Shown piece by piece: positions 34,414 through 64,000 of a stretch of DNA of 64,000 nt (position 1 is the stretch's first letter; every line of letters begins with the position of its first letter). The stretch is from assembly GCF_036588685.1 (NCBI RefSeq), contig NC_086379.1, forward strand, positions 28,024,001-28,088,000, written 5' to 3'. The position numbers were made by a program, and so were the translations under genes. This DNA is from Mytilus trossulus (lineage: Eukaryota). The notes under the pieces are model-generated. The model had not been told where the DNA came from. It ran no database searches and saw nothing but the letters and a program-made list of their open reading frames with translations.

Positions 34414-35016
34414 ATGTGCAACGACGAAAATCGATCAAATGTGCTTTGTGGTATTTGCATCATAATAATTTTATTAGGATTAGGTATAACCCTGATTATT
34501 CTTGGAGGGACATTAGATATCATCGATTTGATCATTTTGGGGGGTATTTTTCTTGGTTTTGGTGCAATTTTATCCTCTTGCATAATTGTTCTTATAGTAA
34601 GACCTCTTTACAACAATAGAAAAATTGGGTATTCAGCAACCGACCTAAAACAAAATGGCATAAATCGACAAGAAAGCGCTGCATTCAGTCAGCATGGAGG
34701 TAGTGTTTTAATTCACGATGCGTACGCAGGCAGTGCTGATCGTCAGACTGTATCCAGTGTTATGCTTGTTATGAGACCAGGTACAACAGACTCAAGACGA
34801 TCAGATATGTTTCAGGCTAGAACTAGACAACATAGTGGAGCAAGTAGTCAAGCATCATTTGTAACAGCCCCTGATCAGAACAGAGATTCTCTAGTATCTG
34901 TTGATGTCGAAAAGGCAAAATCGTCTGACGATGAAATTTCAACAGAAGCAGCATCTAAGACAATGAAACATAAGGTAGCTTTCGAAGAAGAAAATAGTTA
35001 TGTGACTGAGTTTTAA
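34414..35016 (+). CDS. 200-aa two-TM membrane protein with a Ser-rich cytoplasmic tail (paralog A)
   Basis: Hydrophobic hairpin at about aa 10-62; splice acceptor at 34373 upstream of the ATG; ends VTEF. Confidence 0.85.
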   Translation: MCNDENRSNVLCGICIIIILLGLGITLIILGGTLDIIDLIILGGIFLGFGAILSSCIIVLIVRPLYNNRKIGYSATDLKQNGINRQESAAFSQHGGSVLIHDAYAGSADRQTVSSVMLVMRPGTTDSRRSDMFQARTRQHSGASSQASFVTAPDQNRDSLVSVDVEKAKSSDDEISTEAASKTMKHKVAFEEENSYVTEF

Positions 35017-43849: not shown

Positions 43850-44638
43850 GTAAGTTAATCAAGTTAACTTAATTTAAACTTTATGTGTTCATTTAAATGT
43901 GAACGTCTCATTACATAGGTTTACATACATACGGAAGCATATACAATTGATAATACTAGTATGTCTTTTTTTAAAAGACCGCAAGATTTGCTAGGTTAAT
44001 GTGCTTTTAAATGACATTTGTGCTTTCAAACGGACGCCATTTTCGCTCCTCCATTGACTTTGTCACGTGCGACTTGTTATTTTAATCCAAAATGCAGACT
44101 ATTCATAAATGCAGAAGCTTATCAAAAAGAATGGACTATAAAGTTAAGGTTTAACCTTAAAGTTCACGTTCCGCTATTTTGGTCTATAGCGGGCGCTGCT
44201 GCTAGTTATACAAAATGCATCTGCCTTTATAGGGCAAATATCAAAATGCATAAAACTACTGCACTATATTTATGAATAATGTTTACATTGTGACAAATTT
44301 CAAGACTCTTGCTGAGATTTTACTGGAACTTATACATGTTATAGACATTAAAATAATCTCAGCAAGATTTTAGATTTATGGACGAAGAACTGTCAGCTAA
44401 GCATTTTGATTATCTTCACTACTTCATTGAGCGCGGGGTTAACATGGTTAATGCAAAATGAGTTACACAATAATAGATAATCATTTTCCTAAATATAAAT
44501 TTTAAAAAGCGAACAATGAGTATAGCAGGCCTAAACAGTCTTTTGTGATATTTGTAAAATAAAGTTTTTAACAAAACAGGAACATATCAATTTTATGTAT
44601 ATGTAAATGCATAAATGAAAATGAAGGAAAATATTACA

Positions 44639-45050
44639 AACTAGATGAATCAAAGCGACACGAATGGCCCAAAAAGTTGATAAATCTGCAATTCAATGTA
44701 AGCACATGTGGACACAAACATACAAACATGATGGTAGTCTCTCATATCAAAAATCAGCTCAAAATCTGGAGGCTTTTAGGAAAAAAGTTTGTACAATTGT
44801 GATTTTCAACAATTTCTCAAAGTCCAAAGCCCGTAATTTCGGCAAAACTTAGTGCAGCGGAACGAAACTTAAACTTGATCTGTAACTCACCATAGTTAAC
44901 TCACATACCAAAAATCAGCCCAATATCAGAAGGCGTTTAGAAAAGAAAAAAAAACTCCGTATAATGATTTGTTGCGGAATGACGGAATTACGGAGTACGA
45001 CAAGGGTACAACTATATGGCACCGACAACTTCGTTGCGGGGCCACAAAAA
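44639..45050 (+). mobile_element. HINE-like repeat in the nucleoredoxin intron
   Basis: aactagatg start, two ~155-bp internal units (catatcaaaaatcagctcaaaatctggaggc / cataccaaaaatcagcccaatatcagaaggc), acgga microsatellite, A-rich end. Confidence 0.55.
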
Positions 45051-46039
45051 TGATTAATCGGTGGTTGGTGGCTTACACATGTAGTTCATTCAATATATAC
45101 AGAAAAGGCATAATGTCAATAAAATTGCAAAATAACTAATGAAGAGTGTGTTTCCAAGAATGGATATGAATGTATCAGTGGATGCAATCATATTTGATGT
45201 ACGTAAATTCTTCCAATTGAGAAACTTGATTATAATCGAGCTACATATCTATCATAACAATATAAATCTATTTTTTTAAATCTTAAAAATTATTGTATAC
45301 GGAAGCTAACAAAAATTCTATTACCCAAAATTAGCATTTTGAGGATAAGCTAAGATTTTATCATTAAATCTGGGAAAATAGGAAACCGGAAATTTTGTGA
45401 AAAGTGACTTATTTTTAAGATAAAACACTTGATTGTATATAAGGAAACTCACACGATTGCATTACTGTTTTACAATTTTTAGTCAAAACCCTCATTTCAA
45501 TCATGAAATCTCAAAAACTGGAAATCGGATGCAATGTAGCCAAGGTCTAAATCAATATGTTTTGTTTTAAAGGATTTTTAAAATATGAACTGATTAAGAT
45601 GATAATTTGTTTAAATGTTTCAAGACCAACTTTAAAAGTTAATTCAGTGTATGCATTTATTGAAATCTGTGTCGCAAAGACTTGGTAAAAATTATTGGTA
45701 TGGTACAAACATCATGCTTTTTTATACTATAAATGACGTATTTGTGCCTAATCCGTTGGATTTATACTAGTTACAGCCGATTTCAATGAGTGTGTAGCTA
45801 TAGGTAAGTTCTTTGATTCGCTTGCTTGCTAGCTGAACCGTGAAGTCATTGTTAGGTAAGATATATAATACCCTCCTTTCGAAGTAGCCTAGTCCTACAG
45901 ACATATAAATTGGTTATCTGTCGGACCAGTCTACTCTTAATGAGGGTAGTTTATCTATTTAATGCTTCAGTGAGGTAGAAGAAATATTTATTATAATTGT
46001 GTTGGGTTTGAACTAGCTTTCAATATCTGCGAGTGCTCT

Positions 46040-47242
46040 TATATCCAAAACAGGAATAAGGGGCCAAAAAGGGCCCAAATAAGCATTATTCTTGGTTTTC
46101 GCACAATAACTTTAGTATAAGTAAATAGAAATCAATGAAATTTTAACATAAGGTCTATGACCACAAAAGCAAAGCGTGGGATTGACTTTGGGAGTTGAGG
46201 TCACAACAGTTTAGGAATAAAGGGCCAAAAAGGGCCCATATATGCTTGGGGTTGATCTCGGGAGTTTTTATCCCAACGAATAAGGGGCCAAAGGGGCCAA
46301 AATTAAACTTTGTTTGATTTCATCAAAAATTGAATAATAGGGGTTCTTTGATATGCCGAATATAACCGTGTATTTAGATTCGTAATTTGTGGTCCCGTTT
46401 TCAAATTTGTCTACATTAAGGTCCAAAGGGTCCAAAATTAAATTTAGTTTGATTTTAACAAAAATTGAATTCTTTGTGTTCTTTGATATGCCGAATCTAA
46501 ACATGTTTTTAGTTTTTTTTTATTATGAGCCTAGTTTTCAAGTTGGTCCAAATCAGGGTCCAAGATTAAACTTTGTTTGATTTCAACAAAAAATCAATAG
46601 ATGGGGTTCTTCAATATGCTGAATCTAACCATGCATTTAGATTTTTAATATTTAGGACCGGTTATCAAATTGATTCACATTGAGGTCTTAAGGGTCCAAA
46701 ATTGTACTTTATTTGATTTCATAAAAAAATGGATTCTTGGGATTCTTTGATATGGTAAATTTAACCATGTATTAAGATTTTGGATATTGGAATACCACAA
46801 AGGTATGGTAAGAATTGTCTTTGGAAATTATGGCTCAAACCGTTAAGGAATAGGGTGCAAAAAAGGGGGGAAAAGAGTTTCCAGGTTAATGGACAATTTC
46901 TTAAGTACAAAACATAATTTTAAAGCAGTGTAAGGTTGGTAATTGAAACTCATTTTAATATCTCTCCTAAACTGCAATACAATGAAACAGGAAGTTTCTT
47001 CAAATATCAAAGGATTAATATTCAACAGCATACTGAATTGCTCAAAAGCACAAAAAAAAACATTTTAAGTTTATTAGACCACATTCATTCTGTGTCAGAA
47101 ACCTATGCTGTGTCAACTATTTTATCACAATACAATTTCAGAGCTGTATCCAGTTTGAATGTTGTGTCCATACTAGCCCCAACCGTTCAGGGTTCGACCT
47201 CTGCGGTCGTATAAAGCTATGCCCTGCGGAGCATCTGGTTTT
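46040..47242. repeat. Helentron-like element with internal tandem ~130-bp units (4 copies)
   Basis: gggtccaaaattaaactttgtttgatttcaacaaaaattgaat...gttctttgatatgc recurs at about 46294, 46428, 46556 and 46692. Confidence 0.75.
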
Positions 47243-47517
47243 TGCATCAAATGAATATTCTTTAATTGGAAGAATCTAAATTTCCTGTCCATTCTCTCCA
47301 AATTATTTTGATATTGATAAAGTTTACGCAAAAGAAAGCCAGGGAGGGAAGATTTGATACAAGAAGCCAGAGAAGTGTTTTTAATTTGTTTCATGTCATT
47401 GTAGCCTTTTTTAGCAATATAATGAATTAACTTATATATCAAAAGCACATATAACGTGCACGTGTTTTCAATTGCGACAAATACTCATTATTACGTGCAA
47501 ATTTCATTTATTTTTAG

Positions 47518-47717
47518 GTTTATATTTCTCTGCTCATTGGTGTCCACCCTGTCGAAGCTTCACACCAGAATTAGCCAGAAAATATGCAAAATATAAACAG
47601 CAGTACCCATCATTTGAGATTGTGTTTGTCAGTTCAGATAGAAGTGAAAACGATTTTGACTCCTACTTCAGTGAAATGCCATGGTTAGCTCTGCCATTTA
47701 ACGAAGAAGGAAAGAAG
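47518..47717 (+). CDS. NXN: Nucleoredoxin-like gene, exon 2 (GLYFSAHWCPPCRSFTP...FEIVFVSSDR...MPWLALPF)
   Basis: WCPPC active site and NXN-family motifs; canonical splice sites. Confidence 0.95.
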
Positions 47718-48697
47718 GTAAATCTCACTCTGTGACAGTATCATGAAGCATATACGATCGCTCATAGCTGTAAAAAGTCATTTATTTTGCAAATTAGTTT
47801 TTGCTCATAGTCCCATATTTTTGCCAGTTTTGTCAACGTTGAGACATTTGCCAATGTGTCCTTTATTTTCCTGCAGAATTACTATAACTAATATCAACAA
47901 GTAGCTTTGATCTCATTAAACCAATTGACCAGATTTGGTAATTTAATTTCTAAACTGTGCTGAGATTGCTTCCCTTGCATAGTAGAAATTAAGCTATAGT
48001 CTTTAGGAAAGTTCTTATGTTACTTGGTCTATCGGTTTAATATATAATTCAGCATATATGTATGATTCCCTATAATTATGACTGTTTCAATTTGTTTATT
48101 CAAGCTCAAAAACGTCTCCGAAATATTGATGTGGTTCTTCGATGAAATTGATCTTCTTACAAGTGTTTGTCGCTTAACGCTTTCTAAAATAAACGCTGAA
48201 CATTACTAAAAATATAAATTCAAACGATGGTATGATTTAAGAGAAATAAAACAAAACGGAATGTTTTGACTACTGCTTGGAAGTTGCCGTGGCCAAGAAT
48301 AGAATCCGATGTCCAGTATACTTCAGTACTTTGATTTGAATTTGGTGCGTCCGAAGTTCTTTTTCTGGATTAACGTGAGTCAGAAACACTGCAGCTCAAA
48401 AGTTTGATAGTCAAGTAAGCAAGTAAAGAGTATACACATATCTAATCGTTGGATTTATGTAAGTTGTCATAAAAATTGTTGGAGGTATTACAGAAATGTA
48501 TCTAGGACGATAGATCTTTCAATATGTCCAAAAAAGAGGAGTATAAACATAATATATTCATGCTTATCTGAAAAAAAATGAAACAAGTGAAATTTACAGG
48601 CACATGTATAGAGTTTTCAATGTCAATGAACTTTTGTTCAATAACAGAGTGTCCTAAAGTTTCTTTAGTATAGTAATTGTGTGTTTTTGTTTTTCAG

Positions 48698-48838
48698 AAT
48701 AAACTCATGGCACAATTTGGAGTAAGAGGTATACCAGCATTGGTTATTTTAAATGGCGAGACGGGAAAAGTTATATCAAAAGATGGTCGTGCAGACACAG
48801 CGAGTGAGACCTTTCCAACAAGATGGAAAATACAATGA
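48698..48838 (+). CDS. NXN: Nucleoredoxin-like gene, exon 3 (NKLMAQFGVRGIPALVILNGETGKVISKDGR...FPTRWKIQ*)
   Basis: TTTCAG acceptor, GIP cis-Pro motif, TGA at 48836-48838, AATAAA at about 48972; total 147 aa. Confidence 0.92.
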   Translation, partial: NKLMAQFGVRGIPALVILNGETGKVISKDGRADTASETFPTRWKIQ

Positions 48839-50155
48839 TGCCTTTTATAGTATACTCGTGCTGATAAATTTATGTGTTAATTTACAGTCAATCACCATGT
48901 TCCATAATGTAAAACGCACACACATATCTACATATGATTTTAATACATAGACAGTATGACTTGGTTAAAATAATAAATTATACATCGATAAGATTAAGCT
49001 TTTAAAAACTTTTTTTTTGTTGCAGGCCAATTAGTTTTGGTTTTAAATCACTTGCCAGATTTACACAAGTTTGAAAAAAAGGAGACAACTGAACACACGA
49101 AAAATAACGGTAACAGATGCTCACTCGATCATCTTGTTCTTTGTGAATGTTCGTTGTTTTTTTTTTATATATATATATCATGGGTCTTGATGTCTTATTT
49201 TGACGTTGATGAGTGCTAGAATACAGGAAATACAAAGATATTCGTTACTTAAAGAAACGTAAAATGCGAAATCCCATAATCACTAGATGTTGAAAACAAA
49301 TCTTCCCAAAAACATTATATGCGAGTTGTTATATGTTTGGAATTGCCGCAATAGTAGAGTGAATTGTATTTTCAATCTCGTGGTAACATTATGTGCTTGG
49401 TATCGTCAATCTCGGTTAAGTAAGCGGTTTGTATTGTCTCATTTTGCTGTTTAATTTTAAAATATTGTGTTTTGTATTGTCACTCTCTATGTATAGAAGT
49501 TAATTTTCTATTGACACCCGCCCATGTAAGTTATAGGCTTGGTAAAGAAAATCTTTCAGAAAAGAACTGGGTTTAGGTTTTACAATCCTCTGTCAACGAA
49601 GAACGTTGGTTTTCTATGTTCACTCTCTCTGCAAAGTAGTGGGTTTCGTACTGGAACTCTGCTTGGCAAAGTATAGTTTGCTTACTACTGTCCCTTTCGT
49701 TGTTCTTGGTACTGGCACTCCTCAATAAATGTTGCTCGACTAAGAATTTGGTTTGCTGTTTGAAAACAACTGTTAAACGGATAAATGTAGGAGAGAATAT
49801 AAAGGTAAAAACTAACATGAAAACTTAAAAAGTCAAAAATAAACTGACAACGCCACAATAAAAAAAAACTAAAAAAAAGTCTAAAAGTGCAAAAGACAAA
49901 CAGCAGTACACAAAAAATAGCACAGAAGACTAAAAACTGAGCAAAACAAAATCCCATTAAAACCGGGGTTGAAAATTATTCTCATGTGATCCATTTAGGC
50001 AGGATTGTTAATCGTCACAACTCGGCTGATTCCGTACTTCATCTAAGGAGAGAAGCGGAGTCACCCGAGGATTGCCGATTGTGGCAACAACGTATCCGTC
50101 ATCATCTGTAAAAACTTGAGACATTGTGTAATGGCCAGTCGACTCGTGCACATCC

Positions 50156-50383
50156 GAGGCCCCTCATGGGGGGGGGGGGTCCTAGTAATCACATAATCAC
50201 CATTTTTTCCCCAATATAATCACATAATCATTAAATATTTGCTTATCTTTAGTAATCAAATAATATTACTAAAAATACAGTCCTAGGTAATCAAATAATC
50301 ATGAAATATTTGGCTTAATAATCAAATAATCATTAAAAAAACGGCCAAGAAATCGCATAATCAAAAACCCCATGAGGGCCCTC
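50156..50383. mobile_element. MITE with 6-bp TSD ACATCC and internal ATAATCA repeats
   Basis: gaggcccctcatgggg ... ccccatgagggccctc with ACATCC on both flanks. Confidence 0.85.
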
Positions 50384-50678
50384 ACATCCGTGGTGTTGCT
50401 CATATAAGTGCACACCCAAATCAATAGAGATGGATAGATATGAAAAAAATGCACGTTGGCCGGATAAAGTTAGTGAAGATGAAAAACATTTTATAAACCA
50501 TTGTCCCTTTTATATAATCTTTTAAAAAGATTGATATGATATTTTTTTTATAAATTGTAAAAAATAAATATTTTGAACTCAGAAAACTATCCGAATAAAC
50601 AAAATTGAAATCGAAAAGGGGAAATAAATGTCAAACATTTAACAACCCGACCAAAGAAAAGTACAGCCTATAGTAAGG

Positions 50679-50896
50679 TATATCAGAGCCATATAATACA
50701 TTGTGTTTATATGTCTCTGCATATATTTAACTCAAGCAGAAAGAATATTTGCATGAGTGTCAATATACTTCACGAATACTTGGACTTTTGTGATAGTATA
50801 CTAGCTATTTATATGTTAGTATAATAGTCCCAGGTTATGTAATATCATATATATAACTAGAGACATATATAAACACATATATATGTCTCTGATATA
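50679..50896. mobile_element. Element with ~40-bp inverted arms
   Basis: tatatcagagccatata...tgtgtttatatgtctct / agagacatatataaacacatatatatgtctctgatata. Confidence 0.65.
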
Positions 50897-51099
50897 ACTG
50901 TTATGATGATTTGTACTTAGATGCAGACAAGATATATAAAAGCACAGGCTTATTGAAATACATGCAAAGCACTACTAACATACATATCTAAACAAGCCAA
51001 AACTGAAGCACAACTAAAATTTAAGCACAACTAAAATGAAGCACAAATAAAAATATAGCACACATGCAAACATTTAAGGCATACTAACATGTTAGAGCA

Positions 51100-51720
51100 A
51101 TTTCTAGAATATGAAAAAGCTTATCTACACGCAGAACAACAACATTTTGAACCATTCCAAGACTGTATAAGGCTCTTAAATTTAGAAAAAAAGCGGCGGT
51201 TTTCAGTCCTGAAATGGTCAGGTAGGCTGTTCCACAGAGTAGCAGCTGCAAATTTAAAACTGCTCTTATACCAAACTGTGTAGTTTTTACATGTGGTATA
51301 TCCAGTATAGACTATTTACAATATTTTTCATTTAATAGATCATGTAAACACCCTGGTGCTAATTTATTAACTATATTAAAAGTTTCAATAGCCATTAATA
51401 TGCAGTGTTGGCATCGTAGTCTTTTCAAGCAACTGTTGATATGAGCTTGAATGGTCTTTGTACACAAACATAAGTTCTATTTCTTGCACTTTTTCTAAAA
51501 AAAATGTTTTTTTCTCGGTACAAAAGTGCAATGCCAAATGGCAGAAATTAAAATTTGACAAAAAAGATGTAAGGAAAATAGAAAGCTTACTTAGCTTGTT
51601 CAGATAGGCCGCTCCCAAACGTTTCCGGCAAATATTTAGTTGCTGAGATGCCTTTCTGCAAATTTTACCATTATGAATTTAAAATTTTTAGCTGATAATC
51701 TATGTCAAGTAATTGACAGT
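51100..51720 (-). mobile_element. CR1/Crack-type LINE 3' fragment, degenerate
   Basis: SFLSNFNFCHLALHFC...LEKVQE...SSYQQLLEK..MPTLH resembles the SNFNYCPLVWHFC...LEKIQERAL motif. Confidence 0.8.
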
Positions 51721-52040
51721 TGACTCACACGGAAGATCAGCACTATTGATGAGGCCCCTCATTGATGATACGTATAGAAGGCTTTTCAGTGTTATATATG
51801 TTATGTCGCCGACTTCTAAGACCCGTGAGACTGGCTTGTCAGGGTTTTTAATATATATCATTGATAAAATCATTGAATAGTAGGGGCCAAGGTTTGAGAT
51901 CTTACTAGTTATTAATTTGCTCTTCAGCTCTTAAATTGAATAAAAAAAATCTTATTTGAAATAGATCGTATGTTTCGGCGGTGTTCCTGTAAAGGAGGTT
52001 CGTAATTTGATATTAAAGGGACATAACTTATTTCAAGAAC

Positions 52041-52180
52041 GGACGCCATGTTGAAACAATGGAAATGTGTGGAAAATGAAACTACAACGCAGAACTTATA
52101 AAAATAAGCAAGAAAATAATTCAAGAAACTGCGATTTTTACGCATAGTAATTAAGAAATTATTACGACGCATACAAATGT
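52041..52180 (+). promoter_or_regulatory. Candidate promoter / 5'UTR exon of the hnRNP U-like gene
   Basis: YY1-type GACGCCATGTTG at 52042, local CpGs, possible donor T|GTAAGG near 52178. Confidence 0.35.
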
Positions 52181-52470
52181 AAGGAAACTTCAAGAAAAGC
52201 ATTTAAAATTACTATACTAAACCGTTTCTCAAGCTGCAAAACGTAGCTCTTATAATAAAAATTTAATATTTTGAGTTCTTATTCAATGTCATTGAATGTT
52301 CTGTATTAATTAACTGTAGGCCTAGGTACCATTCCTTAAATAAAAATAAAAAAAACCCCAAACAAAACATACAGGAAACGGAATAAAGTTCGAGAAATAC
52401 ACGCTTGTTTTTAATGAGCACCTGTACATGTAAATAGGATAAATTTAACTTTCACAAAATGTAAATATAT

Positions 52471-53660
52471 CAGTGTTCCAGCTAGGCCGTTTTCAGAGTG
52501 TGCGGCGCCCGCCCTTTCCCGAGTGGCGCCCTGTGCCCTATTTACAGTTTCCAGGGCGCCCTGCCTTTTTTGAAGATCGATTGCATATTTATTTGTTCGT
52601 ATTGATATGATACGCTAATTACTAAATTTTACCTGGGGAAAAGTTTATGACTTTGTTTACAACCCCAAGCTAATCAACGGTTACAACTGGTGTCATAATC
52701 TGTTGTTATAGGTAATCCGTTTAGTCGGATGGGTCATTAATGATCATCAACATTAATTCATTCAAATAGTGTCAGTCAGTCGGTAATTACATGTATCTCT
52801 GAAGAAATGTGCATACAACATCTTGGGCACAATTTGCGATGTTTACCGTAGTTTCATGGAGGAAACGTAATGACAGAAAGTTGAAAACCATAATAAACTC
52901 ATTGAAGACATTGTTTTACTTGTTTTCCGTGAAATAAACAGAAAATTCAGACGTATTTGTCATTGACTGCCTTCATTTTTGATACGAAAATAACAATATC
53001 GGCCGCCATATTGTGATCATATTTACATCATATTTATGTACTGTTTATAATCCTCCAAAAAAGGAGCACACCCGAATAAAGAAAAATAACTCAATCTGAT
53101 TTTTTTCCTAGCATTGAGTAACCCATTTACATATTCTAGAATATGTCTACATACTTCTTGCTTAAGAATATATATGTTTAGGTATTTATTTTGAGTTATA
53201 GGAAAAGTTAGAGAGGGTCTTAGTAGCAGTGTTGGTAGGGTGCCTTCAACTGCCTTGATCATCTTTTTTCTGCTTTCTTTATTTTTGATACAATTTAAGC
53301 ACAGCAGGGGTAGAAAGGTGAAACTGGTAAAATGTGGCAGACCATAGAAACAGTATGAAGCAGGTCACCTTTCAAAATATACTGCATATAAAGTTAAACT
53401 GTGCCAAGCAAATTGCAATGATAAAAAAAAACTTGTGTGACAAGCTGCTTGACACGTTTTTCAGCCTTAAAAGTAGAAAGATAGAGTTCTATATGGGCTA
53501 ATGATGTTGTTCTTGTATAACCTGTGATTCAATGAATAAACACAATGTTTGATTAATATCTTATATTAAAATATGCCCTTTTCATATTATCATATCGCGC
53601 GTTAAATGCCCTTTTTCAGGATTGGCACCCTGCCCTTTTGAAATCCTAGCTGGAACACTG
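52471..53660. mobile_element. 1190-bp non-autonomous DNA transposon, perfect 16-bp TIR CAGTGTTCCAGCTAGG, TATAT on both flanks
   Basis: Direct reading of the TIRs; subterminal gcgccc repeats; no transposase ORF. Confidence 0.85.
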
Positions 53661-54439
53661 TATATCCTCTTGTATTGTATTTTCGACCTACTATAAACAT
53701 ATTTTTCTGAAAATTCCCTGTTATATGTTTGAACATAGCTATAGACATACCTAATATTTTGTACATAAAATAATTGTATCGGAAATATATTTCGATCTTT
53801 AATTTATTTTTTCATTTGATTTCATTAGATCGATGGCACCTTTGTTGACAAAAACAAGCGTCTTGTGTTTTCGACCTATGTAAAAAAACGGGTAAAAAGT
53901 TGGGAAACGACATGTCGTACATATCCGGATTTGGTTTAAAATTTGATACCAAAGTTTATATCAAAGTGTTAGAGGCGATCAAACTTATGGCTTAAAGAAT
54001 TAAATGGTTAAATACGACTGCAGCTTCACCTCTATAAGGCCACCTTCAAATGCCAAACATAGCCTTGCAACAGATATTTAAAATACCATAGTCCTAATAT
54101 TAGTCCACCTTCAATAGGCTTTATGCTTTTTGTTAAAAAAAACTCGCATCACAAAGAAAGATTTTTTGTTGTATGGCTTTAAAAGCTGAAGTGTAACAAG
54201 TCTTTGGTCAATTGTTGGAGATTCCAAAATAGTACATGTAATGATGACCTACTTCTTTAAATACTTTTTTCAAATATTAACCCAGATATCCAAATTACAG
54301 ATCCAATAATTTTGGGAGAATAAAAATAAAATCTACTAACTGAACTCCAGAAATGAAGGTCTGTTAAACTTTAAGCATATGGTTATTTCCTGAATTAATA
54401 TAGATATATGTATCTTATTTTATAGACAAAGAAATTAAA

Positions 54440-55260
54440 ATGAATCCCAGCATGCCTGGTGGATATCTACCAATGAATATGATGATGCAACAGATGCAAC
54501 AGCCGTACATGGTGGCTGTGCGACTCCCGCCTGGAGTTCAACAGCCGCAGAGAGGACAGACAGCCGGTGTTCTTCCTGCAGGATTAGGGGCATCTGCCGC
54601 CACACGGTTTGCTGCTCCAGTGCCTCCAACCTCACCATCATCATCATCTGCAGGAGCTCAATATGTAACTTCACCAGCTTTAGCAGCTTCACCAGCATTG
54701 ATGGCATCTCCTGGACTAGTATCTCAAGCTTATGGTGGACAAGGTATCATGTCACAGGGATTAATGACACAGGCATTGGGGCAACAAGGGTTGATGACAC
54801 ATGCTTTGGGACAACAGGGATTAATGACACAGGCTTTAGGACAACAAGGTTTGGCCTCGGGACTAGCAGCTCATCAGTATGCTGGCCACCCAGGTTTAGC
54901 AGGAATGACTGCTCAGGGACTAACAGGAATGACAGCTCAGGGACTAACAGGTATGACTGCTCAAGGACTAGCAGGAATGACAGGAATGACAGGAATGCCA
55001 GGTATGCCAGGCATGCCTGGAATGACAGCACAGAGCTTTGCAGCACAAGGTTTAACAGCTCAGGGATTCCCACCTGGTGGTCTGGCTGCAGCTCATCAGG
55101 GTTTGGCAGCACAAGGTTTCCCACATGGTATGGTCACACAACCAATGTCAGCATATGGTGCACCTAGTATGGCCTTTGCTAATCCTGGTGCTTATGCAGC
55201 TGTTGCACATCCTGGGATGGCTGGATTACAGTATGCATATGCAGATCCTGCAATGGCAAG
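54440..55260 (+). CDS. HNRNPUL1: hnRNP U-like gene, first identified coding exon: Met/Gln/Gly/Ala low-complexity domain
   Basis: 821-bp open frame, acceptor at 54425, phase-2 AG|GTAACT donor in frame with the SPRY exons. The symbol is family-level. Confidence 0.82.
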
Positions 55261-55759
55261 GTAACTATATGATAACATAAGTTGTACAAATGTACGTCAT
55301 AATTTTAAAATAAATTTGACCAATAACTAACAGCTCTTCAATTTTGAGGTTTTAAAGGTAAAAGTTAATGATTTTTTTGCAATTACAATATAGATTTATA
55401 AATACTGTTTCATAAAAAAAAGTAGTTTGAAATTTATAATTAAAGAATTTCTTGATTCTATCAGTACATGTATATCCATATATCTATTTTACCATCGACT
55501 AAAAACTAAATTGAAAACTCCACTCTGAAAATCCAGCTCCTTGTTTAGGGGTAGCTTGAAACTTGAAAGGCCATGGCTACTTCCACTTGTCATCTTTCAA
55601 ATATGGTATTGTACCTATTATGTGATAAAGAAACTCGGAAGTTAAATCAGTCAAAAGATAAAATTAAAGATGCATGATGTAAATATGTTTGTACATTTGA
55701 ATTGAGTTTTATGGTTATAAAGAATATATGCAATTACAATTGTGAATCTTATGTTTTAG

Positions 55760-55873
55760 CATGGCAGGATTAATGCAAGAGGTACCTGTACAAGAAGAAG
55801 AGGTACCAGAAAGTGTAACAGTTAACCTAGATGACTTTAACTCTGATCTCCATCTGATTATAGATTCTGACGG
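55760..55873 (+). CDS. HNRNPUL1: hnRNP U-like exon, SPRY start (VNLDDFNSDLHLIIDSDG)
   Basis: Resembles hnRNP U LDTYNCDLHF; phases 2/2. Confidence 0.9.
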
Positions 55874-56489
55874 GTAAGAAGTGGCAAGATATTTAAATTT
55901 ATTTGTTATTTCTAGATTAAATTGTTAGTTTATAATAAATGTGACATTTTTTTCTTTCAAAGTTATTTATTGTATATGTTTGTTTGTGAATGTAATATAT
56001 GTTTGTCACTATGATCATTAGTTTCACCTCTTAGAAAATGAGGCAATAGATATCAAACGGATATTGATTATTCAAACTTCTGTCAGACAAAGCCAATGTC
56101 AAAAAACAAACATAAAAAACTAACAGTATAAAAAACATACCTAGAAAAACTAAAGACTATGGAACACAAACCCCACCAAAAAAACCCAGGGTAATATCAG
56201 GTGGTGCATAAGTATAGACATATCCTGCTCCACATGAGGCACCTGTTGAATTGCTCATTTAAGTACAAAACCTTAGATAAGTGTATTTCAATAGGTCACA
56301 TTCAAAGAAAAGAATATGCAATATGTACTTAATATTTTCTGCTGGAAATTAAGCACTCACTAATAAAAATAACAACACTATTCTTTTTAAACGTCAACAT
56401 TTATGTATTCTGATGGTTCCAATTTCTTTTGTCAATAATTTCAAAATAAGATGTCGTATGATTGCCAACAAAGGTAATTGTCCATTTAA

Positions 56490-56838
56490 GGGAGTTCGCT
56501 TCTCAGTTTCAAATATGGGGATAAATAAAGGAATCCAAAAAGCAAAAAAAATATATAGGTCAATGTGCTTGCTTTTGAGATATCAGCCATTGAAATTTTT
56601 CTCTAGACTTTTCATAGCTTTTATCATTAACAAGTTTAATTTCTCAAAAACTATTTAAACATAATTAAAATTTTATAAGACTTTTACAGATGGCTTATCA
56701 TTATGCATGTAAAAGATTTATAAAAAGAAAAAAAATGGGGGGCAATGGGCAAATTTTTTGGCAGAGGCATGCAAATGGATAAAACCAGAGGATTTTGAAA
56801 AATCTGAAAAAATCCCAAAACATGACAAGCAAACTTCT
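56490..56838. mobile_element. TTAA-flanked MITE (Kolobok-like) nested in a short interspersed repeat
   Basis: TTAA gggagttcgct ... agcaaacttct TTAA; the host repeat (agatgtcgtatgattgccaa...ggtcactgta) resumes afterwards. Confidence 0.6.
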
Positions 56839-56989
56839 TTAAGACCTAAAAAAAAGTGATGGTCACTGTATAACTACTAATTTTTGTGCTTTTAAAAATG
56901 TTCTTATTGTTGCTTGTCTTTTTATAACATATATGTACATTGTACAGGTATAGCGAAACTATACAATTTTGTTACACATTTTTTTACAG

Positions 56990-57077
56990 ATTTGGTGCTC
57001 ACCCATTAGTTCAACCTCCTGGTTTTAACTTCTGTTGGGCAGGAGCTAGGGCAACCCATGGGGCAATGTCCGGAAAA
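56990..57077 (+). CDS. HNRNPUL1: hnRNP U-like exon, SPRY (GFNFCWAGARATHGAMSGK)
   Basis: WAGARAxxG motif; canonical splice sites. Confidence 0.93.
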
Positions 57078-57510
57078 GTAAGTTATTGTTTGAACATTTT
57101 TAATACCAGAGAATTCAAGCATGACAGGGCATAGCGCTTCTTTGCTAGGTATTCTAAGTGCAAGCTATATTTCTGCTTACAAAATTTTCAAAAGGCTGAA
57201 TGAAATCAGTGAAAATTCATATCTTTCTTCTATTGAAAATAATTTGGCTCTGTTGGACACATTTTCATGGATCATTGATACATGTGATAATGCTAGCTTT
57301 ATGTGACATTGATTTATTAAGATTTTCAACAACAAATTTATGAAAATTAGTAAATCCTGTAAGACATTCCAGTATGTGCACTCTTGTTTATTAAATCACT
57401 TTATGTGTACTGTTATCTCATAGAGATACAGATCAGTTTCAGTTCTGTTTATGCAGATGCATTAAGGGGGAGAAAGACAATATTAAACTCTTTTGACATT
57501 TTATTTATAG

Positions 57511-57895
57511 TATAACTAATCGGCGTATTTGAATATAAAAAAATAAGACAACGCATGACCGAACAACGCATGGATTAAACGAGTGGGCAGCATGAGTTTT
57601 ATCCATAGCGGCGTTTGGTCACAAGTTGTCTTATTTTTGATATTCAAATACGGCGATTAGTTCTACTTTTTATTACATTGTCAACTTGCTTTTTTTATGA
57701 AATTAATGTAGAAAATGTAAGGAACTACATGTTTTTCCTACGCATGTTTTGTTTAGACATTATCGACGTCTTGATAACGCCTATTGTTGTATGACGTCAG
57801 AGAGTAAAATAACCATGTTTATTTCACATGCGAAATTATCAGTTTTTATCTAACTGGGAAATCAATGTAATTCATTGCAACCAATGTAATAAAAA
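57511..57895. mobile_element. Composite element: 155-bp hairpin followed by a 229-bp segment bounded by a 14-bp IR
   Basis: Hairpin at 57511-57665; tttttattacattg (57667) / caatgtaataaaaa (57882). Confidence 0.7.
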
Positions 57896-57951
57896 TACAT
57901 ATGTAGAAGAAGATGTAAGATAAATAACTGATTTTGTGCTTTGATTTTCAG

Positions 57952-58072
57952 CTGTATTATGAGGTGCAAGTTGTTGAACATTTACCAACAAATTTTGGAG
58001 AAAACCATCAAGAAACAAATCCACATGTTCTAAGGGTAGGATGGTCCATCGATGAAAGTTCATTCCAGTTAG
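57952..58072 (+). CDS. HNRNPUL1: hnRNP U-like exon, SPRY (LYYEVQV...HVLRVGWS...FQL)
   Basis: RVGWS SPRY motif; phases 0/1. Confidence 0.93.
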
Positions 58073-58350
58073 GTATGGCTACAAATCTATCAGTTTACAT
58101 CATTAAGCAGTGTTCTATGTAATAAAAATTAGGAACTACAGCTGCTTTAGGACTTTATAAATAGTCCTCAAACTGCTGTACTAACTCTGCTCACTTATTA
58201 GAGCCATGGTCAAGGAGTCAAATAATCATATTTAGCAATTGATCATTATAATACATATACTAAAATAATAGACATTTATTTTAAAGAACAGATTAAACAA
58301 ATGATGAACATGATGAAAAAATTATCTTTCTGATTTTGATGAATTTTCAG

Positions 58351-58600
58351 GAGAAGAACCATATTCTTATGGGTATGGTGGAACTGGGAAATTTTCCAAA
58401 AATTGTAAATTTTCTAATTATGGTGAACCATATGGTGAAGGGGATGTTATAGGAGCCTTACTTGACCTTGATGCCAAACCACCAAGCATGTCATTTACAA
58501 AGAATGGTAAATGGCTTGGAGTAGCAGAAACTTTATCAGCATTCCCAGTTGGAGTCCAAGAAAGAGCACTATTTCCTCATATTTTAAGCAAAAACACCAA
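58351..58600 (+). CDS. HNRNPUL1: hnRNP U-like exon, SPRY (GEEPYSYGYGGTGK...YGEPYGEGDVIG...FTKNGKWLG...LFPHILSKN)
   Basis: Not in the ORF track; translated by hand; strong family motifs; phases 1/2. Confidence 0.94.
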
Positions 58601-59038
58601 GTAAGTATTAAACAAGATTTGTTTACATATGTATTGCAGTGATGGATTCTTCTGTGGTCTATTTTGTATGCAATAGTCTTTGAAATCTTTACACATCAGA
58701 AAATATAAGACATGAATAGTACTGAAAGTGGCATTAAACATCAATCAATCAATCAATTCTATGACAAACCCTACATATTTGTAGTTCACCCAGCCCTTAA
58801 GCCTCTGTGTACAATGTATACATGTAAAAAAATGTCGCATTTTCCTCCTCTGCTCTAAAATTTTAAGTAAACTGCCAAAAAAAAATGGGTGATAATCTTC
58901 TACAAAATGAATATCATACATGGTTCAGATGGAATGAGAAACATGCTGAATTTCTGTGTTAATCTTTCTTCTTGAAACGAAAAAAAAAATGAAACAAGTA
59001 AATTTCAATGCTACAGGTATGTTTTATTTTATTTTCAG

Positions 59039-59162
59039 ATTTATTGTAAATTTTGGTCAGCAAGAATCTTGGTATTCCCCACCACAAGGATTTAATTATG
59101 TAATGCATCAACCAGGTCTTGTCAGAGGAATGGAAGCACCAGCCAAAAAGTCAGACTGTGAA
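59039..59162 (+). CDS. HNRNPUL1: hnRNP U-like exon (VNFGQ...LVRGMEAPAKKSDCE)
   Basis: NFGQ SPRY end and linker; phases 2/0. Confidence 0.92.
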
Positions 59163-59798
59163 GTAAGAATTTTGCATTTATTGTCTTTTTTATGCCCCAC
59201 CTAAGGGCATTATGTTTTTCTGTCTGTGCCCTCATTTGTTTGAATGTCTGTCTGTCCCCGTTCATGTTTATGTGTTTGGTCAAGATAGTTTTTGATGAAG
59301 TTGAAGTCCAATCAACTTTAAACTTAGTACACATATTCCCTATGATAGGACCTTTCTAATTTTAATGTGAAAATAGAGTTGACTCAAGTTTCATAGTCCA
59401 CTGAATGTAGGAAATGATGGTGCGAGTAGGGCATCCATGTACTATGGACACATTCTTGTTAAAGATTTTACTTGGTTTGATACAAAATATATTTACTGTT
59501 TAAAAATGCTCATTTATTTAAAAAGTTAGTTGCATATTTTGTAATATTGTTGAAAAACTGCCAAAGAATAGGGTGGAATAGAATATTTTATTCCCCAAAT
59601 AAGGGCCTCTATAGCATACAAACAATATAATACATTTTGTAATAAACAAAGGAAACAGAGCATTGCCACGACGCAACAAATTACATTCAAACAAATACTA
59701 TTTATCTTTTTACGCCAATTGTGATGCTATCAAAAATTTCTGGGGAGAACACTGAAAGACTCCATACTAAAACCTTTTCTAACATTTGTTGTTTGTAG

Positions 59799-60015
59799 AT
59801 AGTAATGGTTATTGGTCTACCAGGAGCAGGCAAAACAACATGGGGTATAAATCATCAGAAAGCACATCCAGAGAAAAGGTACAATATCATAGGATCAGAC
59901 ACCTTGATAGATAAGATGAAAGTCATGGGCTTGCCTCGTAAAAATAACTACCATGGAAGATGGGACGTTCTCATTGACAAAGCAACAAAATGTCTTAACA
60001 AGTTGTTTGAAATGG
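59799..60015 (+). CDS. HNRNPUL1: hnRNP U-like exon, P-loop (IGLPGAGKTTW...DKMKVMGLPRKNNYHGRWDVLIDKATKCLNKL)
   Basis: Walker A and hnRNPUL1-like GRWDVLI; phases 0/1. Confidence 0.95.
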
Positions 60016-60586
60016 GTAAGTTTTTATTAAGTGGTTCTAGTTGTTGAAATTACATAGGGATTGGTTCATGATTGTATCATAAATTAAATAATTCTCGAAA
60101 ATAAGAATGGAGAAAAATGTCATAAATGATGATAATTGATCATATCAAGGTTAGAAGTTACGACAACATTTGACTTAAAACATTAAAAAAGTAAAATAAC
60201 AAAAACATCAAACTCTGAGGAAAATTCTTAATGGAAAGTCCCTAAGCAAATGGTGTATCAAAACCTCAATACATCAAATGATTGGATAACAACTGTCATT
60301 TCCTGACTTGGTACAAGAGTTTTCTTATTTAAAAAATGGCAAATTTAACCTGGAAACCTCTCACTTAGACTCATATATTGAAGTTGTTATTAAATTGAAA
60401 TATTATTTTTTTTTCATTTCAAGAAAATTACTATCCTACACTGGGATGATTATAAGTCATTTTCCCCTAAAAAAACCTGTTAAACTGAAACTAAGTGTAT
60501 GGAAGAAATGACTTTGAATGAAATCAATTTGAGTGACGGTGATAAGAATGAAAATGGTATTATATTCAATTTTTTGTATATTTTAG

Positions 60587-60751
60587 CTCAAAAAAGGAAC
60601 AGAAATTTTATTCTTGATCAAACCAATGTTTATCCGTCTGCAAGAAAAAGAAAGATGAAGAATTTTAGTGGATTTCTTAGACGTGCTGTAATTATCCAAC
60701 CAGAAGATTCAGAATTGCAAAGACGATCAGAACAAAGAACTGTAGATGATG
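60587..60751 (+). CDS. HNRNPUL1: hnRNP U-like exon (RNRNFILDQTNVYPSARKRKMKNFSGF...)
   Basis: ILDQTNV Walker B region; phases 1/1. Confidence 0.95.
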
Positions 60752-61409
60752 GTAAAGACTGATATTATATAAGCATTGTATTTAACCTTAAGAAGACATT
60801 TTTTTCTTTCTTAAGTACATGATATTGACAATGTCAGAAATAAAGACATGTTGTTTTGTTGATCAATATAGATGTGTTTCTAATTTTGAGGGAATAATCT
60901 GTTACTATTATTAACTATGAAAGGAATGTCATTTTGAGGAAGCTGTTCAATTTGTATCATACATAAGGCCATGTAAAAAATCTACTACTTAGTTTATTAA
61001 AATGTTATATAAATAAGAAATACAACATGTCATTGGTTCCTTTAAATATTCCTTTGAGTATTCATCTCTAGAACAGATTGACTTTTGTGTTTTATAAAAG
61101 TTATAAAATAATATAAAGGAGTGATACTTTTTAAGTGGACACATATAAAAAAGAAGATGTGGTATGATTGCAAATGAGACAACTATCCACAAAAGACCAT
61201 AATAGCACAGACATTAACAACTTTTGGTCACTGTATGGCCTTCAACAATGAGCAAAGCCCATACATACTTGTTATACATTTAACAGCACCACTCTTCTTG
61301 CACAAGATACACATGATCAAAAAGAATATTTCATAATTATTATGACAGGTAATTGGCATACAGGTTTATTAACAATACTTTAAATTGCATTTTGACTTGA
61401 ATATTACAG

Positions 61410-61542
61410 GAAAGTTTGTTCCCGAGTCAGCTATTGTTGAAATGAAAGCTAATTTTAAATTGCCAGATGTCAATGACCATTTATTTGATAAGATTGACTA
61501 TGTAGAACTACCTAGAGAGGCCAGTGTCAAGCTTGTAGAAAG
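61410..61542 (+). CDS. HNRNPUL1: hnRNP U-like exon (GKFVPESAIVEMKANFKLP...FDKIDYVEL)
   Basis: MKANF motif; phases 1/2. Confidence 0.93.
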
Positions 61543-62234
61543 GTATTAAGATTGGATGGAAACTTAATTTAATGCATACATTACAAGTTATCATAACACA
61601 ATAAATATAAAATAAAGAAAATGCAGTGTGATATCCAATCAGACCATTCTGAACCAGACACCAAAAGACAAAGTTAACAACTATAGGTCACAGTATGGCT
61701 TCAGCAATGAGTAAAACAAATACTGCATAGTCCATGAAATGACAAATCTGAAACCATTCAAATGGAAAAAAATAACAGCCTAATTGATATAAAAAATGAA
61801 TGAAAAACAAATATGTTATACAACAATAAATGACAATCACTGATTTACAGGCTATTGACTTGTGAAGGGAAACACAGAATGTGGCAGTGTTAAACATGTT
61901 AGCATGCTTCCCTCCCTCAACCTAAAGTAAACAAAGCGAAAGTTAAGGATGACCAAAAAAGATAAAAGTTTACAATAGCAGAATATAAAAGTGTCTTAAG
62001 ACATCTTTATACTCAACTTCTTTCCAAAGAAGGCAACGTTTTAGGAACCACCAATAGAAATGATGTTATTCTGAAAATAGTTTATTGTTATTCTCAAGTT
62101 CAGCTCAACTATGTGACACATTTTCAGTGTCTTTGATATGGAAAACAATAGATTGACTGCAGTTATAATATTTACTGAAAAGTTTGATCAGAACAGAATG
62201 AAAGCGTGTGTATGATTTACATTATTTGTTATAG

Positions 62235-62316
62235 GTATAATGGTGAAGGTAAACATGGTAGCCAGCCACCCAGAACTGGAGGTCAACCTTTCCAGCCCCC
62301 TGCAGATCTCAGACAG
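62235..62316 (+). CDS. HNRNPUL1: hnRNP U-like exon (YNGEGKHGSQPPRTGGQPFQPPADLRQ); the 3' end of the gene is unresolved
   Basis: ATAG acceptor, CAG|GTAGGT donor, in frame. Confidence 0.85.
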
Positions 62317-64000
62317 GTAGGTCAAACAGGTATAGTTAAAACAACATGGAAATTTTTTACAAATTTTATATTATTTATGCCTGAATAATTATGAATTATA
62401 ACATAATTCAGTATTCCAATAGAAAAAAGGCCACCCACAAAATGATTAAAATGTTTTATAAAAAACCAACCTGCATAGTATTGAGTTCCTGTAAAATTTT
62501 AATTTATGGATATGTTACTTGTTGTTAAACAAAAAATTTCCATGTTATAACTTTCATGTATTAGTATTGTTAAAAAAAATCTTGTTTGTAAATAATTATA
62601 TGTAAGTAAATACACTTTATTATACATTTGTGTACATCTATTTACAGATTAAAAAGAGGTATCATTACATGTATGTACATGCTTGCTGAATTAATTTCAG
62701 TACATAAACACACACACAACAATGATCCAGCAAACATCTTTAATATGCTATAATCAAGTTTTAAATAATCTTAAGTTAACATTATTATGAAGTTGGATAT
62801 ATTTTTTCTTTAAAAATTCAATTATGGAACTAACAAAAACATACACACTGAAGTTACTGATTTTAATGTAAAGATTTCTCAGTTATAAAGATATTATAGA
62901 GAAAACATTCATAAAATATTGTTGTGGTAGGCTATATAAGAAACTAGAAATAAGGGCAACAGTTTAAAGATACCATACTTATGTGTTTTGAAAGGATAAG
63001 TACTATGACTATCAGCTCAGCTAAACAAAAAGTTATAACACTAACAGATTTGAGCAAAATGTTTCCAGATAGTGCTGTAAATATCTTGGTATTAACCTCA
63101 TTTTGTTCATACTGAGGAAACAGCATGTTTCAGAAAATAATGAATAAAAGCTTATCCTTTGCATAACTTGAGCACAAAGTTTATCAAAAGAAAGATGTTG
63201 AATTCAAATGTTGAGTACTTTTTTCATTTCCTCCTTGACCTATAGAGAATTTAATAATAATCGTTATACACGTCAGTTGACAATTTATTTGAATATTTTA
63301 TTATTTGCAAATAAAAGCGATACTGTTCAATGCATTCTATAATTACTTGCTTAAAACCTTTTAGTCAGAATAATAAAAACTTTTGTTTTTAAGTGGATTT
63401 TGTTATATAAAGTTGTAAGAAAATACTTTTCTTTTATATTATACATTATAAGTCAGACTTTTCAAATATACTTGTTGGACCAAAGAAATTATTAGTAGAT
63501 TTGGAATTTTTTTTTTTTTTTTTTTATAGTAGTATGAACCCAGAATTGTTACCAATTGCAGTTAAACAGCACACTGTATATGCTTTTTGCACTGTTTTTC
63601 TAATTACAGAATGAAAATAATAAAACATTTAGAGATATATATATATTAAAATATATGTATAAACTAGTCATGACCTTGCATGTTCTACATTTTAAGTTTT
63701 ATGAGATTAGATGATGAATAAGAAAATATAAAAAAAATCATTTTGAGAATACATTTTTTCAAAATGAATATTTTAATAAAATTTTAAAAATATTGCTCAG
63801 TTTGTTTAAAAAGATGTTAATTTTTTGGTGATTATTGCATGTTATGAAAAAGAAATCATTTGTGCTTAGAACATTCAGCATTATGATAAAGTTAAATATT
63901 TAGAAGTAAAATGAAACCTAGTCTTATAAAGGTATATTTAAGGATAGAGGTTATGTCTTGAATTTAAAAAAAGAATGCTTGAAGTAGTCTTATTCGATCA

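What the first reader, a model, noticed from the sequence alone, without database searches (positions are those of the whole stretch)
54440..62316. hnRNP U-like protein with rearranged architecture: no SAP domain, N-terminal prion-like Met-rich domain
Seen: SPRY and P-loop (GLPGAGKT, ILDQTNV) exons are intact. The N-terminus is about 273 aa with ~27 Met, only 3 Arg, 1 Asp and no Lys/Glu, and I found no SAP exon or RGG box in the window. Established: hnRNP U/UL1 are SAP - acidic region - SPRY - AAA-like - RGG/low-complexity tail. Inference: a divergent paralog that swaps DNA binding for a condensate-forming domain. Met-rich LC domains (yeast Pbp1, TDP-43) are oxidation-sensitive, so its assembly could be redox-tuned. 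Caveat: the 14 nt between the acceptor (54425) and the ATG are open, so an upstream coding exon is possible.
Basis: partly seen in the sequence, partly recalled or inferred. Interest (0 to 1): 0.7.

Follow-up and report, generated by a model that had tools for sequence, protein, structure and literature searches.

The report
Likely revived RNA kinase in mussels
This mussel gene is a second copy of a nuclear RNA-binding protein whose human version is a dead enzyme; it carries the aspartate that revives the human protein in the test tube, kept across molluscs and annelids, so it is likely a naturally active enzyme that adds phosphate to RNA or DNA ends.

Summary
The gene is spliced in transcript-type contigs, has no SAP domain, and starts with a 273-aa low-complexity exon (27 Met). 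The upstream exon (52046-52178) is non-coding. The RG/RGG tail is not missing: it lies on a last exon about 9.5 kb past the window, giving 1224 aa. A canonical SAP-bearing paralog sits on contig C3. Human hnRNPUL1's P-loop domain is a dead polynucleotide kinase, and N456D restores its activity (PMC13066744). This protein has Asp540 at that site and keeps the other active-site residues. The Asp is fixed in a clade of molluscs and annelids (UFBoot 100), whereas canonical paralogs, cnidarians and most sampled plant and protist homologues have Asn. It is likely an active 5'-OH kinase that arose from a pseudo-enzyme ancestor (about 0.55). A conserved U2AF-ligand-like motif suggests splicing-linked RNA substrates. 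Activity is untested, and Asp alone did not revive human hnRNP U. The Met-redox idea is weak: Met content and arm length vary widely among orthologues.

The parts
52046..52178 (+). Non-coding first exon (5'UTR); contains four upstream ATGs, none in an open frame with the main ATG
   Evidence: Joint 52178->54426 GT..AG in contigs of X1, X6, X10; in-frame stops before the main ATG
54426..55260 (+). Coding exon 1 (ATG 54440): 273-aa Ala/Gly/Gln/Met/Pro low-complexity arm with a clade-conserved Met-rich start motif and short tandem repeats
55760..55873 (+). Coding exon 2: short acidic linker and start of SPRY
56990..57077 (+). Coding exon 3: SPRY
57952..58072 (+). Coding exon 4: SPRY
58351..58600 (+). 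Coding exon 5: SPRY (PF00622)
59039..59162 (+). Coding exon 6: end of SPRY and linker
59799..60015 (+). Coding exon 7: kinase domain with Walker A (G517 K518 T519), Asp540 and Trp561
59898..59900 (+). Codon GAC = Asp540, equivalent to human hnRNPUL1 Asn456 and PNKP catalytic Asp396
   Evidence: Offset mapping, codon position, paper numbering; contigs of X1 and X9 show 0 differing letters over 59799-60014
60587..60751 (+). Coding exon 8: Walker B Asp589, Thr591, Arg600 and the RxxxR lid
61410..61542 (+). Coding exon 9: end of kinase domain
62235..62316 (+). Coding exon 10: start of the disordered tail; frame still open at the GT donor
62317..64000 (+). Start of the last intron (about 11.2 kb), which runs out of the window. 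Coding exon 11 lies OUTSIDE the window (G000:C7:28097486-28099045): a 519-aa Gly/Pro/Gln tail with a conserved helix motif at a SUMO-consensus site, a U2AF-ligand-like motif near residue 1000, and a terminal RG/RGG region
   Evidence: The junction was not seen in reads here; it is supported by P0001 and by relatives encoded on single 4.4-5.2 kb contigs

Best explanation
This is a SAP-less paralog of the hnRNP U-like family, shared by molluscs and annelids, whose kinase-fold domain has an aspartate at the catalytic site, so it likely works as an active 5'-hydroxyl polynucleotide kinase, probably on nuclear RNA. SHOWN: gene structure, SPRY plus kinase-fold core, Asp540, the other active-site residues, the clade, and the tail motifs. 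INFERRED from human hnRNPUL1 and PNKP: ATP binds the P-loop (G517-K518-T519) with Asp589; Thr591 and Arg600 hold the nucleic-acid backbone; Asp540 activates the 5'-OH for transfer of the gamma phosphate. INFERRED MORE WEAKLY (about 0.35): the RG tail and the U2AF-ligand-like motif bring it to nascent or spliceosomal RNPs, where it would convert 5'-OH RNA ends into 5'-phosphate ends fit for XRN2-type decay or ligation. The Asp most likely arose from an Asn ancestor after gene duplication, leaving the C3 paralog as the dead 5'-end binder.
For: 1. Human hnRNPUL1 has Asn456 where PNKP has catalytic Asp396, and N456D phosphorylates RNA and dsDNA 5'-OH ends (PMC13066744). 2. With the paper's numbering, 8 of 10 tested offsets from the Walker A Lys give the identical residue with no gap (G433, K434, T435, W437, W477, D505, T507, R516). 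N456 reads Asp540, and R468 reads Pro. 3. An alignment profile places this site on the Gly-Ser-Asp of archaeal PSTK, a kinase (E 6e-6). 4. The AlphaFold2 core model (pLDDT 92, built on P0001) matches polynucleotide kinases: 4gp6 Z 13.8 (rmsd 3.1, 146 aligned), T4 1ly1 Z 13.0 (4.1, 146), PNKP 3zvl Z 11.7 (3.6, 139). 5. With the site column removed, mollusc and annelid Asp proteins form one clade (FastTree 0.995-0.997; UFBoot 100); 27 of 27 members have Asp. The C3 paralog has Asn. 6. The kinase domain is closer to the revivable UL1 (55-56% identity) than to hnRNP U (47-48%) or UL2-like proteins (41-42%). It keeps the Trp477 segment and second lid Arg that vertebrate hnRNP U lacks, and the Thr507 that UL2-like proteins lack. 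7. A ULM-like motif occurs in 17 of 20 long orthologues, 3 of 217 Asn-type tails and 26 of 4000 shuffles.
Against: 1. No activity was measured. 2. The same change (N512D) did not revive human hnRNP U, and UL2 with Glu is inactive. 3. Asp also occurs sporadically in divergent homologues: 67 of 417 proteins by motif call, including 8 SAP-bearing ones outside this clade and lineages where the site drifts to S, T, K, A, H or E. 4. Fold scores tie with PSTK, Kti12, 6-phosphofructo-2-kinase and zeta kinases, so the fold does not fix the substrate. 5. The genome has PNKP-like and CLP1-like loci, so this gene does not replace a lost kinase. 6. The ULM pattern was written after seeing the motif; a stricter pattern (recalled from ELM) is met by 8 of 20, and not by the bivalve form. 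7. The Asn-ancestral reading rests on inspection of trees rooted on protist-like sequences, with no formal reconstruction; tunicate Asp proteins join the clade at only UFBoot 60.
Confidence: 0.55

Rival explanations
1. It is still a pseudokinase. The Asp tunes ATP or 5'-end binding without turnover, and the protein works as a splicing or RNA-processing scaffold like hnRNPUL1.
For: hnRNP U N512D and UL2 are inactive. Asp appears sporadically in divergent homologues. Ten other clade-specific core changes accompany the Asp. ULM-like and RG motifs fit a scaffold.
Against: The Asp is invariant across the clade while every other mapped active-site residue is UL1-like, and UL1 needs only this one change.
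Confidence: 0.27
2. It is an active kinase, but its main substrate is 5'-OH DNA at breaks, or another acceptor, rather than spliceosome-linked RNA.
For: Human N456D also phosphorylated dsDNA. hnRNPUL1 acts in double-strand break repair (abstract). The fold ties with small-molecule and tRNA kinases.
Against: It has no SAP domain, has RG and ULM-like motifs that point to RNA, and PNKP-like genes are present.
Confidence: 0.12
3. One reading: the distinguishing function is a Met-rich, oxidation-sensitive condensate arm that replaces SAP-mediated DNA binding.
For: Met is 9.9%, charge is almost absent and aromatics are about 5%. Pbp1 uses Met in place of aromatics and is melted by H2O2 (review PMC8394241, passages). 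The first 30 residues are Met-rich in 16 of 20 orthologues.
Against: Arm length (81-338 aa) and Met content (0-8.1% beyond residue 30) are not conserved; two land snails have short, charged arms. The mussel Met sits partly in tandem repeats. Cnidarian and plant homologues lack SAP too. The arm may still form condensates as a side property.
Confidence: 0.06

Closest known systems
Human hnRNPUL1 (E1B-AP5) and its N456D mutant
   Same: SPRY fused to a PNK-fold domain between disordered arms, with an RG tail. Walker A and B, W477, T507 and R516 are conserved. The kinase domain is 55-56% identical to bird and rodent UL1.
   Different: No SAP or long acidic region; Asp instead of Asn456; an uncharged N-terminal arm; a longer Gly/Pro/Gln tail with ULM-like and SUMO-consensus motifs.
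Canonical mussel paralog on contig C3
   Same: Same SPRY-PNK core, 39-73% identity exon by exon.
   Different: It has SAP, an acidic exon, Asn at the catalytic site and a Gly/Gln/Trp-rich tail.
Polynucleotide kinases: T4 PNK, bacterial Pnkp, mammalian PNKP kinase domain; also PSTK
   Same: P-loop kinase fold (Z 11.7-13.8), catalytic Asp position, RxxxR lid (motif recalled).
   Different: No phosphatase, FHA or ligase domain; fused to SPRY; activity and substrate untested.
ULM-bearing splicing factors (SF3b155 ULM5, SF1, ataxin-1)
   Same: A basic run, then Trp-Asp-x-Pro, in a disordered region (sequences seen in PMC2791216).
   Different: The bivalve form has a Pro inside the basic run; binding to a UHM domain is untested.
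Yeast Pbp1 and TDP-43 Met-rich low-complexity domains
   Same: Met-enriched, aromatic-poor, disordered arm.
   Different: Composition is Ala/Gly-dominated and variable between orthologues; there is no evidence of redox control.

Membership tests
Canonical SAP-type hnRNP U/UL1 | N-terminal SAP domain | tested here: not met
   the upstream exon is non-coding. Not filed here: the C3 gene is the canonical member.
Canonical SAP-type hnRNP U/UL1 | Long acidic region before SPRY | tested here: not met
   1.8% charged residues in the N-terminal arm, only a short Glu run
Canonical SAP-type hnRNP U/UL1 | Asn at the PNK catalytic site (dead kinase) | tested here: not met
   Asp540
Wider hnRNP U-like SPRY-PNK family | SPRY domain | tested here: met
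   PF00622 54.6 bits; DDX1 SPRY Z 30.5, rmsd 1.6, 186 aligned
Wider hnRNP U-like SPRY-PNK family | Adjacent AAA_33/PNK-fold domain | tested here: met
   PF13671 97.8 bits; model
Wider hnRNP U-like SPRY-PNK family | Disordered C-terminal RG/RGG tail | tested here: met
   11 RG in residues 1132-1219, on the exon beyond the window
Wider hnRNP U-like SPRY-PNK family | Core nests within the family tree | tested here: met
   Groups with bilaterian members, UFBoot 93
T4/PNKP-type polynucleotide 5'-kinase | P-loop GxxGxGKT and Walker B Asp | tested here: met
   G517 K518 T519, D589
T4/PNKP-type polynucleotide 5'-kinase | Catalytic Asp (PNKP D396) | tested here: met
   D540 by gap-free offset from the paper's numbering; aligns with the Asp of PSTK. 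No residue-level superposition on PNKP was available.
T4/PNKP-type polynucleotide 5'-kinase | Nucleic-acid-binding Thr/Arg (PNKP T423/R432) and RxxxR lid | tested here: met
   T591, R600; lid in 20 of 20 long orthologues (lid motif recalled)
T4/PNKP-type polynucleotide 5'-kinase | Fold closer to PNKs than to other P-loop kinases | tested here: inconclusive
   PNK Z 13.8, PSTK 13.7, zeta 13.1, T4 13.0, PFK2 12.7, Kti12 12.3, PNKP 11.7
T4/PNKP-type polynucleotide 5'-kinase | ATP-dependent phosphorylation of 5'-OH ends | not testable with these tools
   needs a bench assay
UHM-ligand motif (ULM) proteins | Conserved basic run + Trp + Asp in a disordered region | tested here: met
   17 of 20 vs 3 of 217 controls and 26 of 4000 shuffles (post hoc pattern); low pLDDT there
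UHM-ligand motif (ULM) proteins | Binding to a UHM domain | not tested
   No complex prediction was run; a pass would mostly reflect likeness to solved ULM-UHM pairs
Met-rich redox-sensing LC domains (Pbp1 type) | Met enrichment conserved across orthologues | tested here: inconclusive
   Conserved only in the first 30 residues; 0-8.1% elsewhere
Met-rich redox-sensing LC domains (Pbp1 type) | Prion-like score and H2O2-sensitive phase separation | not testable with these tools
   PLAAC is not among the listed tools; bench assay needed

The most novel reading that the evidence does not exclude
A pseudo-enzyme that was already dead in the common ancestor of animals came back to life by Asn-to-Asp in a duplicate gene before molluscs and annelids split, and has been kept since as a nuclear, spliceosome-tethered RNA 5'-kinase. 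The same reversion may have recurred in tunicates and a sea star. This would be a natural pseudokinase resurrection and an undescribed 5'-OH RNA-processing activity in these animals.
Probability: 0.35. Interest if true: 0.88.

Novelty: new variant of a known kind. Interest (0 to 1): 0.72.

Why it matters
The three human hnRNP U proteins were inactive as kinases in the paper that tested them (PMC13066744), and the authors who revived hnRNPUL1 with one mutation called the preserved potential remarkable (bioRxiv 10.1101/2023.07.22.550030, passage). This clade is the natural version of their mutant, sitting in the same genome as a paralog with the dead residue. It makes three questions directly testable: why the active site stayed one step from active, what separates revivable UL1 from non-revivable hnRNP U, and whether pseudo-enzymes regain catalysis in evolution. 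It would also add a new nuclear 5'-OH kinase to the short known list (PNKP, CLP1, NOL9/Grc3). In the hit lists seen here these proteins carry only generic names (hnRNPUL1-like, uncharacterised, hornerin-like).

Tried and rejected
UPSTREAM SAP EXON: rejected.

MISSING RG TAIL: rejected; it is a window-edge effect.

It rests on the open frame, the acceptor, the 4296-nt X1 contig length and homologous proteins.

EXPRESSION RECORDS: no RNA holder listed; the run type is a guess.

FULL-LENGTH FOLD of relative P0004: pLDDT 42, uninformative on whether the arm motifs pack on the core.

FOLD SEARCHES: Foldseek and pdb_via listed only SPRY-type matches; only the wide search reached the kinase domain.

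ATLAS: search with the first 60 residues gave no usable hit, which shows nothing.

REPLACEMENT OF A LOST PNKP OR CLP1: rejected.

THIRD FAMILY GENE, as in pulmonate snails: none seen in this genome; only the C7 and C3 loci matched (16 candidates scored).

LITERATURE: searches listed no paper on an invertebrate Asp-type paralog. I saw listings and abstract starts only, the library holds only CC-licensed PMC and bioRxiv, and searches were too loose to be strong tests.

EARLIER SCAN NOTES: none returned.

NOT RUN: complex prediction and a formal ancestral-state reconstruction.
Full report
GENE STRUCTURE. Ten exons between 54440 and 62316 have GT/AG ends and join into 705 open codons. Contigs of four runs were laid on 44001-64000 (4 of 24 listed; their RNA status is a guess). 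They skip the introns: 55258->55758 in 3 of 4 runs, six joints from 57075 to 61409 in 4 of 4, 61540->62233 in 3 of 4, and an upstream joint 52178->54426 in 3 of 4 (the table was cut, and one joint, into coding exon 3, was not among the rows shown). The upstream exon has in-frame stops before the ATG, so it is 5'UTR. The frame stays open at 62316. A large exon 11 kb further on, outside the window, adds 519 aa ending in 11 RG dipeptides. The 1224-aa model is 98.2% identical end to end to a Mytilus galloprovincialis protein (P0001), so the organism is a mussel. That last junction was not seen in reads here. It is supported by P0001, by relatives on single 4.4-5.2 kb contigs, and by the 4296-nt X1 contig, of which only about 2220 nt fit in the window.

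NO SAP, TWO PARALOGS. PF02037 has 48 matches in the genome, none near the window. One lies on contig C3 at the head of a second SPRY-kinase gene with an acidic exon and RGG tail. Only these two family loci were found. A SAP HMM built here finds the C3 exon at 7e-24 and nothing better than E 6.3 in the window or 20 kb downstream.

THE CLADE. Searches returned long SAP-less proteins of 1050-1700 aa from bivalves, gastropods and a cephalopod, plus shorter annelid models from Capitella and Helobdella (only the best 120 of 202 and of 925 hits are listed). They share a Met-rich start motif, a short motif after the kinase domain (17 of 20, against 0 of 217 Asn-type tails) and a basic-Trp-Asp motif in the tail (17 of 20, against 3 of 217 and 26 of 4000 shuffles). 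The 20 were those with an apparently complete N-terminus; partial proteins were left out, and the patterns were written after seeing the motifs. The last motif resembles the SF3b155 ULM5 and SF1 peptides quoted in PMC2791216 (passages).

THE KEY RESIDUE. PMC13066744 (abstract, part 1 of 4 of Results, section 11 and Discussion read; supplements, including Figure S3, not seen) shows that the hnRNPUL1 P-loop domain is a dead polynucleotide kinase. Asn456 stands where PNKP has catalytic Asp396, and N456D phosphorylates 5'-OH RNA and dsDNA. Counting from the Walker A Lys with no gap, the mussel protein has the same residue at G433, K434, T435, W437, W477, D505, T507 and R516, Pro at R468, and Asp540 at N456 (codon 59898-59900). 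The C3 paralog has Asn. Of 199 proteins first aligned, 155 had Asn, 42 Asp and 2 other residues; 28 of the 29 Asp tips in the 173-tip tree formed one clade, the exception being a sea star. A profile search of solved structures aligns the site with the Gly-Ser-Asp of archaeal PSTK and also lists bacterial and T4 polynucleotide kinases at weak E-values. The core model (pLDDT 92) matches SPRY domains strongly and P-loop kinases at middling, tied scores (Z 11.7-13.8). The fold therefore agrees with the paper but does not name the substrate.

EVOLUTION. Trees were built without the site column. The mollusc-annelid Asp group, including a core-only gastropod subgroup, has FastTree support 0.995-0.997 and UFBoot 100 (42 chosen sequences in the last tree). 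Cnidarians, Saccoglossus, Nelumbo, Cyclospora and most of the bilaterian SAP clade have Asn. Asn at the base of animals, with Asp gained in this clade, is the simplest reading; no formal reconstruction was run. In hand-picked sets, 15 of 15 clade members have Asp and 28 of 28 canonical proteins have Asn (the sea star and divergent lineages were left out of the second set). Against a clean story, Asp also occurs in Ciona and Clavelina (joining the clade at UFBoot 60 in one tree and falling outside it in another), Asterias, Drosera, a foraminiferan and 8 SAP-bearing divergent proteins; among 417 proteins the motif call gave 307 Asn, 67 Asp and 43 other or unclear. Nematostella and Nelumbo homologues have no SAP, though two unnamed proteins near the cnidarian branch do. 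Whether this clade lost SAP or never had it is open.

HOW LIKELY IS ACTIVITY. Asp did not revive human hnRNP U, and UL2 is inactive. Vertebrate hnRNP U, however, has a one-residue deletion after the P-loop, lacks the Trp477 segment and lacks the second lid Arg, and UL2-like proteins have Cys at Thr507. The mussel domain has the UL1 state at all of these and is 55-56% identical to UL1, against 47-48% and 41-42%. That these differences explain the failures is my inference. I put kinase activity of any kind at about 0.65, the RNA-directed version at 0.55 and the specific spliceosome link at 0.35. PNKP-like and CLP1-like genes exist in the genome, so it would be an added activity, not a replacement. 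The human dead domain binds 5'-monophosphate RNA and antagonises XRN2 when overexpressed (bioRxiv 10.1101/2023.07.22.550030, passages). An active paralog would make the ends that the dead one binds; this pairing is speculation.

THE MET ARM. It is real and predicted disordered, and it resembles Pbp1 in being Met-rich and aromatic-poor (review PMC8394241, passages). But its length and Met content vary widely and part of it comes from short tandem repeats. Only the first 30 residues look constrained. Redox tuning is possible, but unsupported.

VERDICT. A real, conserved paralog; a new variant of the hnRNP U-like SPRY-PNK family, not a canonical SAP-type member. Its interest lies in the catalytic Asp, not in the missing SAP. 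The literature searches named under Tried and rejected listed no description of it, within the limits of that library.

Noticed in passing
window 47415-47732 and 48696-48935 (+): Upstream neighbour: a spliced nucleoredoxin/tryparedoxin-like gene (WCPPC motif, Thioredoxin_8 E 4e-20; joint 47715->48696 in 4 of 4 runs), ending about 3 kb before the 5'UTR exon. No link to the finding is shown.
   Followed up: partly
G000:C14:19.53-19.86 Mb and C6:76.79 Mb: Five intronless, full-length PNK 3'-phosphatase (PF08645) matches in open frames of 187-1087 aa, four clustered on C14, besides an intron-split locus on C1. They may be retrocopies or belong to a mobile element.
   Followed up: no
Proteins P0200, P0202-P0204, P0216, P0218, P0258, P0414: Pulmonate snails have extra, fast-evolving Asp-type copies, many reduced to the bare SPRY-kinase core of about 400 aa. 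They are convenient candidates for an activity assay.
   Followed up: partly
Proteins P0321, P0322 (Ciona, Clavelina), P0066 (Asterias), P0393 (Drosera), P0410 (Nonionella): Other SAP-less homologues with Asp at the catalytic site; these may be independent reversions.
   Followed up: partly
window 52046-52178: The 5'UTR exon holds four upstream ATGs, one opening a 17-codon ORF. The first lies in a CGCCATGTT element resembling a YY1 site (recalled).
   Followed up: no
window 34411-35013 and 40570-41418 (+): Two similar single-exon-like ORFs with hydrophobic N-termini (weak TMEM174-like match for the second, E 0.024); possibly a tandem pair of membrane-protein genes.
   Followed up: no
window 24499-25329 (-): A 277-codon Lys/Glu-rich, coiled-coil-like ORF without a clear Pfam match.
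   Followed up: no
window 1493-2240 and 46291-46781: Tandem arrays of period 38 (20 copies) and period 128 (3.7 copies); the second draws very high contig depth, so it is a common repeat.
   Followed up: no
L036-L037, about 27-31 kb past the window end (-): Exons that look like an astacin-type protease with Sushi and MAM-like parts (labels recalled, not scanned).
   Followed up: no
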